Below are positions 58,191 to 60,405 of a DNA stretch of 64,000 nucleotides, in pieces. A program made the position numbers and the translations under genes. Source of the DNA: the human T2T-CHM13v2.0 reference genome, Homo sapiens; the NCBI RefSeq assembly GCF_009914755.1, contig NC_060929.1, one strand, 5' to 3'. Below the pieces are notes generated by a model that saw only the letters and a program-made list of their open reading frames with translations, was not told where the DNA came from and ran no database searches. How positions within the stretch are numbered: position 1 is the first letter of the stretch; the number at the start of each line of letters is the position of its first letter.

Positions 58191-58601
58191 TATAAACTTT
58201 CCATTGACATTTATTACTTTTCTTCTCAGATATATGGGTGTACTCAAGCCTGGTGTTATTGAGAAGAGGAATTATGCCTGATTTATCTTTGTATTCTCCC
58301 AGCATAGTAACTTGGATAAAATAGTCAGAAGGCAATCAATCAATATTAAATGAGAAAATATAATTTATATAGTACCAATATGAAGAATTCTGGTTAGCTC
58401 TTTTTTATTTCCTCTGAAGCCATGTCCTCACCTCAATCCCAGTTACTCAAATAATATAGTTTAATCTTTTAATTGCCAAAAAGATAAAGTCACCAGGCTA
58501 GTGGGGATTTTTTTAAATCATGTTGATTTTCCAGCTAACTTAAATGTGGTATAATTTTAAAATATGATTTCCAAATCTAAGCTTTATCTAACAGACATTT
58601 T

Positions 58602-60387
58602 TTCTTTTTTTTTAATTATACTTTAAGTTCTGGGATACGTGTGCAGAATGTGCAGGTTTGTTACATAGGTATACACGTGCTATTGTGGTTTGCTGCACCC
58701 ATCAACACGTTATCTACATTAGGTATTTCTCGTAATGCTATCCCTCCCCTAGCCCACCGCCCCCAACAGGCCCCAGTGTGTGATGTTCTCCTCCCCATGT
58801 CCATGTCTTCTCATTGTTCAGATCCCACTTATGAGTGAGAACATGGGGTGTTTGGTTTTCTGTTCCTGTGTTAGTTTGCTGACAATGGTGGTTTCCAGTT
58901 TCATCCATGTCCCTGCAAAGGACATGAACTCATCCTTTTTTAAGGTTGCACAGTATTCCATGGTGTATATGTGCCACATTTTCTTTATCCAGTAAAGCAT
59001 TGGTGGGCATTTGGGTTGGTTCCAAGTCTTTGCTATTGTGAACTGTGCTGCAGTAAACATACATGTGCCTGTGTCTTTATAGTAGAATGATTTATAATCC
59101 TTTGGGTATATACCCAGTAATGGGATTGCTGGGTCAAATGGTATTTCTGGTTCTAGATCCTTGAAGAATCGCCACACTGTCTTCCAGAATGGTTGAACTA
59201 ATTTATACTTGCACCAACAGTGTAAAAGCTTTCCTATTTCTCCACATCCTCTCCAGCATCTGTTGTTTCCTGACTTTTTAATGATCACCATTCTAACTGG
59301 CATGAGCTAGTATCTCATTGTGGTTTTGATTTCTAATGACCAGTGATGATGAGTTTTTTCATATGTTTTTGGGCTGCATAAATGTCTTCTTTTGAGAAAT
59401 GTCTATTTATATCCTTTGCCCTCTTTTTGATGGGGTTGCTTGTTTTTTTCTTGTGAAGTTGTTTAAGTTCCTTGTAGATTCTGGATATTAGCCCTTTGTC
59501 AGATGAGTAGGTTGAGAAAATTTTCTCCCATTTTGTAGGTTGCCTGTTCACTCTGATGGTAGTTTCTTTTGCTGTGCAGAAGCTCTTTAGTTTAATTAGA
59601 TCCCATTTGTCCATTTTGGCTTTTGTTGCCATTGCTTTTGGTGTTTTAGTCATGAAGTCTTTGCCCATGCCTATGTCCTGAATGGTATTGCCTAGGTTTT
59701 CTTCTAGGGTTTTTATGGTTTTAGATCTTACATTTCATTCTTTCATCCATCTTGACTTAATTTTTGTATAAGGTGTAAGGAAGGGGTCCAGCTTCAGTTT
59801 TTTGCATATGGCTAGCCAGTTTTCCCAATATCTTTTATTGAATAGGGAATCCTTTCCCCATTGCTTATTTTTTCTCAGGTTTGTCAAAGATCAGATGGTT
59901 GTAGATGTGTGGCATTATTTCTGAGGCCTCTGTTCTGTTCCATTGGTCTATATAACTGTTTTGGTAGCAGTACCGTGCTGTTTTGGTTACTGTAGTCTTG
60001 TAGTATAGTTTGAAGTCAGGTGGTGTGCTGCTTCCAGCTTTGTTCTTCTTTTTGCTTAGGATTGTCTTAGTTATACGAGCTCTTTTTTTGGTTCAGTATA
60101 AAATTTAAAGTGGTTTTTTCTAATTCTGTGAAGAAAGTCAATGGTAGCTTGATGGGGATAGCATTGAATCTATAAATTACTTTGTGTAGTATGGCCGTTT
60201 TCACGATATTGATTTTTCTTATCCATGAGCATGGAATGTTTTTTCCATTTGTTTGTGTCCTCTCTTATTTCCTTGGGTAGTGGTTTATAGCTCTCCTTGA
60301 AGAAGTCCTTCATATCCCTTGTAAGTTGTATTCCTAGGTATTTTATTCTCTTTGTAGCAATTGTGAATGGGAGTTCACTCATGATTT
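58602..60387 (-). mobile_element. 5'-truncated L1PA (older primate subfamily, L1PA7/8-like), ~1.8 kb
   Basis: ORF2 fragments in ORFs 58818..59303, 59333..59668 and 60170..60382 ([22 protein letters not shown]); poly-T tail at ~58600-58613. Confidence 0.96.
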
Positions 60388-60405
60388 ATTTTATGTTACT
60401 TGCAG

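What the first reader, a model, noticed from the sequence alone, without database searches (positions are those of the whole stretch)
58585..60405. L1PA inserted between the branch point and acceptor of the 60406 exon and may supply a replacement branch point
Seen: L1 homology ends at ~60387, only 18 nt (attttatgttacttgcag) before the exon. Removing the L1 reconstructs ...tatCTAACagac-attttatgttacttgcAG, which puts a perfect CTAAC branch motif (58588-58592) with its A at about -24. That motif is now 1.8 kb away. The L1 end offers yTnAy motifs TTCAC (60374-60378) and CTCAT (60378-60382) at a usable distance. Inference: a primate retrotransposon rewired this 3' splice site and may have weakened the long isoform, a possible route to gene fission. 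Caveat: the TSD is short and ambiguous (atttt), so the reconstruction could be off by a few nucleotides.
Basis: partly seen in the sequence, partly recalled or inferred. Interest (0 to 1): 0.75.

Follow-up and report, generated by a model that had tools for sequence, protein, structure and literature searches.

The report
Primate L1 beside an ancient splice acceptor
A 1.8-kb primate L1 retrotransposon sits only 18 bases upstream of a very old exon of the ZNF474/ZNF475 locus, probably pushed the original branch point 1.8 kb away and supplied substitutes, but nothing shows that it split the gene.

Summary
An antisense, 5'-truncated L1 occupies window 58598-60387: a T-tail at 58598-58613 and the body, ORF2p residues ~753-1274 plus 3'UTR, at 58614-60387. 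It ends 18 nt before the acceptor of exon 60406. CTAAC lies at 58588-58592; TTCAC and CTCAT lie at 60374-60382.

New here: the acceptor is far older than the L1. In 34 stored proteins (placentals, marsupials, birds) the ZNF474 body reads straight into this exon (..[10 protein letters not shown]..). The lemur protein maps to donor 33884|33885 and acceptor 60406. The L1 differs from the majority of its closest copies at about 6.4% of positions, so it is of primate age.

The L1 therefore entered a working 3' splice region. Three reconstructions of the empty site put CTAAC at -24 to -29. Today the 30-nt AG-free stretch upstream of the acceptor AG holds only L1-derived or junction candidates, at -29, -25, -22 and -18. 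These motifs are the L1 family's usual state, so they arrived ready-made.

The gene-fission idea is weak. The short read-through ZNF474 form is also modelled in lemurs, tarsier, rodents and carnivores, and the acceptor is still used in human transcripts. The empty-site ortholog and lariat mapping could not be done.

The parts
58588..58592 (+). CTAAC, candidate ancestral branch point (branch A at 58591), now 1815 nt from the exon
   Evidence: Sequence. Reconstructed at -24, -28 or -29. It is the only A in the -18 to -37 range with 4 Watson-Crick pairs to the U2 GUAGUA box. There are 47 CTAAC per 64 kb on this strand.
58597..58601 (+). Left copy of the putative 5-nt target-site duplication ATTTT; it overlaps the start of the T-run
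   Evidence: Searches found no longer flanking repeat. The inferred nick site TTTT/AT fits the L1 endonuclease preference (recalled knowledge).
58598..58613 (-). L1 poly(A) tail, read as T6-C-T9 on the + strand
   Evidence: Genomic L1 matches begin at 58592-58616.
58614..60387 (-). Body of a 5'-truncated L1: ORF2 from about codon 752/753 to the stop, plus the 3'UTR (1774 nt)
   Evidence: PDB ORF2p matches. It is 88-92% identical to genomic copies over up to the whole length. It differs from the majority of 28 copies at 112 of 1763 columns.
60356..60373 (+). Two L1-internal AGs (60356-57 and 60372-73) that mark the upstream limit of the AG-free zone; 60357 follows a 14/18 pyrimidine tract and looks like a decoy acceptor
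60374..60382 (+). L1-derived branch-point candidates TTCAC (A60377, -29) and CTCAT (A60381, -25)
   Evidence: both fit yUnAy, with no AG between them and the acceptor. The stretch is identical in 6 of 7 other L1 copies; one has CATC.
60385..60389 (+). TTTAT at the L1/target junction (A60388, -18); its U at -2 is supplied by the L1 end
   Evidence: the context is gacAt before insertion (reconstruction A) and tttAt now.
60388..60405 (+). 18-nt remnant of the original intron: right ATTTT copy, weak pyrimidine tract and the acceptor AG
   Evidence: 13 of 18 pyrimidines at -20..-3; the longest pyrimidine run is 4.
60406..60586 (+). Exon (ZNF475 exon 2) encoding a C2HC zinc finger; it is in phase 0 with the ZNF474 donor at 33884
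   Evidence: Pfam zf-C2HC_2, E 2.6e-8. It is 71% identical to ZNF474 residues 90-140. The junction is conserved in 34 of 143 stored proteins.
33882..33890 (+). AAG|GTAATT, the donor (33884|33885) that in other mammals joins the ZNF474 body to exon 60406; human ZNF474 reads through it
   Evidence: the lemur protein maps as residues 1-346 to 32847-33887 and 347-407 to 60409-60591.

Best explanation
A primate-age L1, antisense to the gene and 5'-truncated inside ORF2, inserted by ordinary target-primed reverse transcription at a TTTT/AT site. That site lay 18 nt upstream of an acceptor that already existed in the amniote ancestor. In that ancestor the acceptor joined the ZNF474 body (donor 33884|33885) to the third zinc-finger module, now called ZNF475. 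The insertion left the pyrimidine tract and the AG (-18 to -1) intact. It moved everything upstream by 1.8 kb, including the most likely ancestral branch point, CTAAC at about -24. The acceptor survived because the L1's truncated end carried branch-like motifs at the right distance: TTCAC at -29, CTCAT at -25, and a junction-made TTTAT at -18. These sit in a 30-nt stretch free of AG. The present branch point is therefore most likely L1-derived or junction-derived. Shown: the geometry, the L1 identity, the relative ages and the motif content. Inferred: which adenosine was and is used, and any change in splicing efficiency.
For: L1 identity and edges. The acceptor is older than the L1. Long proteins of 451-456 aa in lemur, pig, horse, cat, hare and elephant, and 446 aa in possum, read ..DK|P(T/A/S)(M/V)IRRPP.. 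across the junction. 34 of 143 stored proteins carry that motif, including 5 marsupials and 2 birds. The lemur protein maps exactly to donor 33884 and acceptor 60406. L1 age: 6.6% (117 of 1774 columns) and 6.35% (112 of 1763) differences from the majority of its nearest copies. The ORF2p C-terminus is 79% identical to human L1 ORF2p (my count). Reconstructions: CTAAC falls at -24, -28 or -29 under three junction models, and it is the only candidate with 4 Watson-Crick pairs to U2. Mercer 2015 (PMC4315302, passages read) places 90% of human branch points 19-37 nt upstream (median 25) and names CUAAC as the canonical, highly conserved motif. Present state: the AGs at 60356-57 and 60372-73 leave only A60377, A60381, A60384 and A60388 as candidates at -29 to -18. 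The L1 end is identical in other copies. The acceptor is used by the annotated ZNF475 transcripts (hub table). TE-supplied branch points have precedent: 154 mapped ones belong to Alu exons.
Against: No empty-site ortholog could be examined, so the reconstruction rests on a 5-nt TSD that overlaps the T-tail. A small target-site deletion or filler cannot be excluded. Human branch points are degenerate and often multiple, so TTTAT (A58586, reconstructed at -29 to -34) or others may have been used instead. There are no lariat data: ZNF474 does not occur in the 7 supplementary files of Mercer 2015 that could be searched, and one file could not be searched. The exon-proximal 100 nt of the L1 are not clearly more conserved than the rest. 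They show 3 of 100 differences, against 1-15% in other bins and 1-9 differences in the same segment of other copies. So there is no signature of selection on the supposed new branch region. The U2-pairing count is a crude score.
Confidence: 0.6

Rival explanations
1. One reading: by removing the strong CTAAC branch point and placing a repressive antisense L1 against the exon, the insertion weakened the acceptor. That would have ended use of the canonical long isoform (33884 to 60406) in anthropoids, turning one gene into ZNF474 plus ZNF475.
For: No anthropoid protein with the canonical junction was found. There were 0 among the 34 junction-bearing proteins. The three anthropoid clusters holding the ZNF474 C-terminal region are all short: 364 aa with 80 members, Rhinopithecus 362 aa with 10 members, and Aotus 349 aa with 5 members (all 90 hits listed). 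The chimp long model (434 aa) uses another donor (33528) and non-conserved exons. Attig 2018 (PMC6108849, passages read) shows that primate antisense L1s recruit MATR3/PTBP1, repress nearby exons and are depleted next to constitutive exons. Zhang 2011 (PMC3088655, passages read) gives a 50-bp underrepresentation zone for LINEs. The acceptor's own tract is weak (13/18 pyrimidines).
Against: The short read-through form is also modelled in tarsier, four lemurs, colugo, rodents, hare (X2 beside the long X1), hyena and seal, so it is old. The acceptor at 60406 still serves every annotated ZNF475 transcript, including ones that start at the ZNF474 promoter (hub table; chimp model). What is missing is use of donor 33884, not use of the acceptor. 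Whether New World monkeys carry the L1 is unknown, yet Aotus also shows only a short model. Gene models are predictions, and two of the three protein lists were cut at 120 rows. One lineage gives one data point.
Confidence: 0.12
2. The insertion was effectively neutral and the CTAAC is a coincidence. Either the ancestral branch point was another, weaker site, or the junction lost or gained bases, so the reconstruction is off and nothing was 'rewired' in a meaningful sense.
For: The TSD is only 5 nt and overlaps the T-tail. yTnAy motifs are common: 1343 in 64 kb, about 0.4 per 19 nt. A second yUnAy (A58586) lies 5 nt upstream of CTAAC. The L1 end shows no conservation signal.
Against: CTAAC in the right window has about 1.4% chance (my arithmetic). 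All three junction models keep it at -24 to -29. The acceptor needed some branch point upstream of the 18-nt remnant. Before insertion the remnant's own adenosines were at -18 in a poor context (gacAt), -13 and -8.
Confidence: 0.2
3. The branch point always lay inside the 18-nt remnant (A60388 at -18 or A60393 at -13) and still does, so the L1 neither removed nor supplied it.
For: A60393 fits yUnAy both before and after the insertion.
Against: Positions -13 and -18 lie outside the 19-37 nt range that holds 90% of mapped human branch points. A60388 lacked the U at -2 before insertion under reconstruction A.
Confidence: 0.08

Closest known systems
Retrotransposon insertions next to splice acceptors (intronic 'underrepresentation zones'; Zhang, Romanish and Mager 2011, PMC3088655)
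   Same: A LINE lies within the 50-bp zone upstream of an exon, where fixed LINEs are depleted and where disease-causing Alu and L1 insertions cluster near acceptors.
   Different: This one is fixed in the reference genome, roughly 30-40 Myr old by divergence, and the acceptor still works. It is a tolerated case, not a pathogenic one.
Branch points supplied by transposable elements in Alu exons (Mercer et al. 2015, PMC4315302)
   Same: TE sequence provides the branch motif for a 3' splice site; 154 mapped branch points belong to exonized inverted Alus.
   Different: There the TE brings the whole 3' splice site of a new exon. Here the exon, AG and pyrimidine tract are ancient and only the branch region would be TE-derived. 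No lariat evidence exists for this site.
Splicing repression around primate antisense L1s by MATR3/PTBP1 (Attig et al. 2018, PMC6108849)
   Same: A primate-specific antisense L1 abuts an exon, which is the arrangement that the paper finds to be selected against and repressive.
   Different: No binding or knock-down data were examined for this locus, so repression here is only an inference.
One locus giving a short isoform by read-through and intronic polyadenylation, and a long isoform by splicing
   Same: ZNF474 ends by reading through donor 33884|33885 and using ATTAAA at 34398-34403. The long form splices to exon 60406 in other mammals.
   Different: In human the downstream module is also annotated as its own gene, with a first exon at 41032-41118 (hub table). 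Whether the L1 had any part in that is unshown.

Membership tests
LINE-1 insertion made by target-primed reverse transcription | Homology to L1 ORF2 and 3'UTR | tested here: met
   ORF2p residues 753-801 and 1114-1274 matched. Genomic copies are 88-92% identical over up to the whole 1774 nt.
LINE-1 insertion made by target-primed reverse transcription | Poly(A) tail at the 3' end and 5' truncation | tested here: met
   T6-C-T9 at 58598-58613 on the + strand. Homology stops at 60387, inside ORF2 codon ~752/753.
LINE-1 insertion made by target-primed reverse transcription | Target-site duplication, typically 7-20 nt | tested here: inconclusive
   Only ATTTT (5 nt) is shared, and it overlaps the T-tail; there is no longer repeat.
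LINE-1 insertion made by target-primed reverse transcription | Endonuclease-type target (TTTT/A) | tested here: met
   The reconstructed site reads ..ATTTT/ATG.. on the strand that carries the cDNA (the consensus itself is recalled, not from a call).
L1PA (primate-specific L1 subfamilies) | Best match to an L1PA consensus | not testable with these tools
   No repeat library is on hand. The age class is inferred from 6.35-6.6% differences from the majority of nearest copies. The subfamily number is left open.
U2-type branch point | yUnAy-like motif with an adenosine 19-37 nt upstream and no AG before the acceptor | tested here: met
   Present: A60377 (-29) and A60381 (-25). Reconstructed: A58591 (-24 to -29), with an AG 2 nt downstream that is too close to compete (the rule is recalled).
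U2-type branch point | Lariat mapped to the nucleotide | not testable with these tools
   There is no hit for ZNF474 in the 7 searchable supplementary files of Mercer 2015. No other data set was examined.
Transposon insertion between branch point and acceptor with branch-point replacement | The acceptor predates the transposon | tested here: met
   The junction is conserved in 34 proteins from placentals, marsupials and birds and maps to 33884/60406. The L1 is of primate age.
Transposon insertion between branch point and acceptor with branch-point replacement | The empty-site ortholog shows the old branch point at working distance | not testable with these tools
   Only the human genome and prokaryote, viral and plasmid collections are held (notes no relatives).
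Gene fission | The ancestral single gene encodes both parts | tested here: met
   Proteins of 451-456 aa in many mammals cover ZNF474 1-346 plus ZNF475.
Gene fission | The derived lineage no longer makes the joint product | tested here: inconclusive
   No anthropoid model has the canonical junction. However, human and chimp models still join the two parts through donor 33528 (hub table), and the human 456-codon reading frame across 33884/60406 is intact.

The most novel reading that the evidence does not exclude
The L1 swapped a canonical CTAAC branch point for weaker L1-borne ones and brought a repressive antisense-L1 platform to the exon. This tipped an old balance between intronic polyadenylation and splicing at donor 33884. 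As a result anthropoids lost the three-module ZNF474 protein that other amniotes make and kept the third module only as a separate small gene (ZNF475). That would be a gene fission started by a single retrotransposon landing in a branch-point-to-AG interval.
Probability: 0.12. Interest if true: 0.65.

Novelty: new member of a known kind. Interest (0 to 1): 0.4.

Why it matters
This looks like a clean natural experiment on how a 3' splice site survives losing its branch point. The exon, AG and pyrimidine tract are hundreds of millions of years old, while everything upstream of -18 was replaced about 30-40 Myr ago by L1 sequence that already carried usable motifs. Fixed LINEs this close to an acceptor are rare, so the locus suits minigene and lariat tests of branch-point plasticity and of antisense-L1 repression. 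The work also shows that human ZNF474 and ZNF475 are two parts of one ancestral three-module C2HC zinc-finger gene. That matters for annotation and for any functional study of either protein.

Tried and rejected

(2) I looked for an empty-site ortholog and found no way to get one. The held genome has no relatives, and the other collections are prokaryotic, viral or plasmid.

(3) I tested whether the exon-proximal L1 end is unusually conserved, which would suggest selection on a new branch region. It is not. It shows 3 of 100 differences, against 6.35% overall; other bins range from 1 to 15%, and the same segment in other copies shows 1-9 differences. The 0 differences in the last 74 nt are a post hoc observation, and I do not count them.

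(4) A longer or decayed TSD was not found. The ATGATTT match at 58564-58570 is too far from the tail to be one.

(5) L1 homology does not extend past 60387. Two longer genomic matches are gapped chance similarity.

(6) I asked whether the ZNF475 first exon (41032-41118) is repeat-derived. The stretch 40820-41200 is single-copy in the genome at this sensitivity.

(7) Literature. 'ZNF475' occurs in 11 papers; the listing suggests another gene under an old alias (listing only). 'ZNF474' occurs in 61 papers; none of the 12 listed concerns isoforms or the L1 (listing only). Searches on branch points and retrotransposon insertions gave only general papers. ZNF474 is absent from the searchable Mercer 2015 supplements.

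(8) Pfam found no family for the L1 ORF2 pieces; one sub-threshold chance hit (PH_30) was ignored.

(9) No splice-site or branch-point predictor (MaxEntScan, SpliceAI, LaBranchoR) is installed. I used only motif, distance, AG and U2-pair counts.

Full report
**What is in the sequence**

- CTAAC lies at 58588-58592.
- A T-run (T6-C-T9) lies at 58598-58613.
- L1-like sequence runs up to 60387.
- The 18 nt attttatgttacttgcag lie at 60388-60405.
- The exon starts at 60406 and its ATG is at 60412.
- TTCAC (60374-60378) and CTCAT (60378-60382) lie at the end of the repeat.

**Is it an L1, and where does it end**

Read on the minus strand, 60170-60385 matches human LINE-1 ORF2p residues 753-801 (E 5e-21). 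Likewise 58818-59306 matches residues 1114-1274 (E 1.8e-85). By my count of those alignments, 40 of 49 and 127 of 161 residues are identical. The element is therefore antisense to the gene and 5'-truncated at ORF2 codon ~752/753. Its poly(A) tail forms the T-run at the left.

A search of the window's own genome with 60300-60460 gave 39 non-self matches. Of these, 33 end exactly at 60387 and 6 end within 60386-60397. The two longest extensions are gapped chance similarity. With 58560-59160 as query, the 39 non-self matches start at 58592-58616.

No flanking direct repeat longer than ATTTT exists. On the strand that carries the cDNA, the reconstructed target reads ATTTT/ATG. This resembles the L1 endonuclease site TTTT/A, which I recall from the field rather than from a call.

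**Age of the L1**

The element is 88-92% identical to its closest genomic copies. Column by column, it differs from the majority base of 11 copies at 117 of 1774 positions (6.6%). It differs from the majority of 28 further copies at 112 of 1763 positions (6.35%). Those copies themselves differ at 4.4-6.6%, apart from one partly misaligned row.

With a neutral rate of about 0.17-0.2% per Myr (recalled), this means roughly 30-40 Myr. That places the insertion in anthropoids or catarrhines. I could not name the L1PA subfamily because no repeat library is on hand.

**The acceptor is much older than the L1**

- The exon encodes a C2HC zinc finger (Pfam zf-C2HC_2). Together with the next exon, it is collinear with ZNF474 residues ~88-191 at 67-71% identity.
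- A protein search with the exon found many mammalian proteins of 451-456 aa that are 86-95% identical to it over its whole length.
- Their sequences run from the ZNF474 body straight into the exon..[13 protein letters not shown]...
- Human ZNF474 reads ..SVTDK and then [18 protein letters not shown]. That tail is the translation of the intron after a good donor, AAG|GTAATT, at 33884|33885.
- The mouse-lemur protein maps as residues 1-346 to 32847-33887, 347-407 to 60409-60591 and 406-455 to 63346-63495.
- Both junction sides are in phase 0, so the human 456-codon frame across 33884/60406 is still open.
- Of the 143 proteins then stored, 34 carry the junction motif. They include five marsupials and two birds, and none is an anthropoid.

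The acceptor therefore existed in the amniote ancestor, and the L1 landed in a working 3' splice region.

**Branch-point analysis**

I modelled the empty site in three ways: with a 5-nt TSD, with microhomology and a 4-nt TSD, and as a blunt join.
- The A of CTAAC falls at -24, -28 or -29.
- It is the only candidate in the -18 to -37 range that forms 4 Watson-Crick pairs with the U2 GUAGUA box.
- A weaker yUnAy (A58586) lies 5 nt upstream of it.
- Before insertion, the adenosines of the remnant itself were at -18 (context gacAt, no U at -2), -13 and -8.

Mercer et al. 2015 (passages read) place 90% of mapped human branch points 19-37 nt upstream, with a median of 25. They describe CUAAC as the canonical, highly conserved motif.

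CTAAC occurs 47 times on this strand in 64 kb. By my arithmetic, its presence in a 19-nt window has about 1.4% chance. The loose yTnAy motif is common, with about 0.4 expected per window.

In the present sequence, AGs at 60356-57 and 60372-73 leave a 30-nt AG-free stretch upstream of the acceptor AG. Inside it lie:
- A60377 (TTCAC, -29)
- A60381 (CTCAT, -25; 3 Watson-Crick pairs plus 1 wobble)
- A60384 (-22)
- A60388 (TTTAT, -18), whose upstream U residues come from the L1 end

The old CTAAC is 1815 nt away with 94 AGs in between, so it cannot serve this acceptor.

**Did the L1 end adapt, or is it constrained**

The last 88 nt of the L1 are 98-100% identical to other copies. The stretch GGGAGTTCACTCATGATTT is the same in 6 of 7 stored copies; one has CATC. 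The substitute motifs therefore came with the element and needed no later change.

The exon-proximal 100 nt show 3 differences from the family majority. The overall rate is 6.35%, other 100-nt bins range from 1 to 15%, and the same segment in other copies shows 1-9 differences. This gives no evidence of selection on the new branch region.

**The gene-fission idea**

For it:
- No anthropoid protein with the canonical junction appeared in any search.
- A search with the ZNF474 C-terminal region listed all 90 hits. The only anthropoid clusters in it are short: 364 aa (80 members), Rhinopithecus 362 aa (10 members) and Aotus 349 aa (5 members).
- The chimp long model (434 aa) uses another donor (33528|33529) and exons 37974-38063 and 40910-41118. 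These encode about 100 non-conserved residues before exon 60406.
- Attig et al. 2018 (passages read) show that primate antisense L1s recruit MATR3/PTBP1, repress nearby exons and are depleted beside constitutive exons.
- Zhang et al. 2011 (passages read) give a 50-bp underrepresentation zone for LINEs.

Against it:
- Short read-through forms of 338-350 aa, ending ..DK-VIHAT or similar, are also modelled in tarsier, four lemurs, colugo, several rodents, hare (beside its long form), hyena and seal. The short isoform is therefore old.
- The acceptor at 60406 serves every annotated ZNF475 transcript, including those that start at the ZNF474 promoter (hub table). What is not seen is use of donor 33884.
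- The -18..-1 tract was not touched by the insertion.
- Whether Aotus has the L1 is unknown.
- Gene models are predictions, and two of the three lists were cut at 120 rows.

I rate this reading at about 0.12.

**Verdict**

The core interpretation is that an L1 entered the branch-point-to-AG interval of an older acceptor, displaced a likely CTAAC branch point and supplied replacements. It is well supported in silico but lacks its two decisive tests, the empty-site ortholog and lariat mapping. I rate it at 0.6.

The fission claim is only a correlation.

In kind this is a tolerated, fixed example of a known class: transposon insertions at acceptors, and TE-derived branch points. It is made more interesting by the great age of the exon and by the finding that ZNF474 and ZNF475 are parts of one ancestral gene.

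No paper on this locus's L1 or isoforms turned up in the searches.

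Noticed in passing
window 33882-33941: The last 18 residues of human ZNF474 ([18 protein letters not shown]) are the translated intron after a conserved donor, AAG|GTAATT, at 33884|33885. In lemurs and tarsier the same read-through stops after VIHAT or VTHAT. Catarrhines (364 and 362 aa clusters) lost that stop and gained a longer tail.
   Followed up: partly
window 32847-33884 + 60406-60586 + 63347-63498: Human ZNF474 and ZNF475 are parts of one ancestral three-module C2HC zinc-finger gene, which gives 451-456 aa in many mammals. 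The 456-codon frame across 33884/60406 is still open in human, although no such transcript is in the hub's table.
   Followed up: yes
window 33528|33529, 37974-38063, 40910-41118: A second donor lies inside the ZNF474 coding exon (TGTG|GTAAGG). With two downstream exons it gives an in-frame chimp model of 434 aa, in which zinc-finger module 2 is replaced by about 100 non-conserved residues. The same exons are listed for human ZNF475 transcripts.
   Followed up: partly
window 58588-58627: The old CTAAC is now followed directly by the L1's 16-nt T-tail, and the first AG comes at 58626-58627, 36 nt from the branch A. Together these look like a ready-made cryptic 3' splice site. No annotated exon uses it.
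   Followed up: no
window 60338-60357: The L1-internal AG at 60356-60357 follows tattttattctctttgt (14 of 18 pyrimidines, run of 8), a better tract than the annotated acceptor's 13 of 18 (run of 4). Its use would add 48 nt with upstream ATGs to the 5'UTR. In all, 13 AGs inside the antisense L1 have at least 14 of 18 pyrimidines upstream.
   Followed up: partly
window 34398-34403: An ATTAAA poly(A) signal lies 22 nt before the annotated ZNF474 3' end (34425), about 540 nt into the intron that the long isoform removes. The short isoform therefore ends by intronic polyadenylation.
   Followed up: no
literature: The 11 papers that hold 'ZNF475' look, from the listing only, to use it as an old alias of a KRAB zinc-finger gene and not this locus. 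ZNF474 appears 15 times in a paper on predicting ciliary genes (CilioGenics), which I did not read.
   Followed up: no
window 40820-41200: The first exon of the selected ZNF475 transcript (41032-41118) and its upstream 200 nt are single-copy in the genome at the sensitivity of the search, so this start site is not a young repeat.
   Followed up: partly
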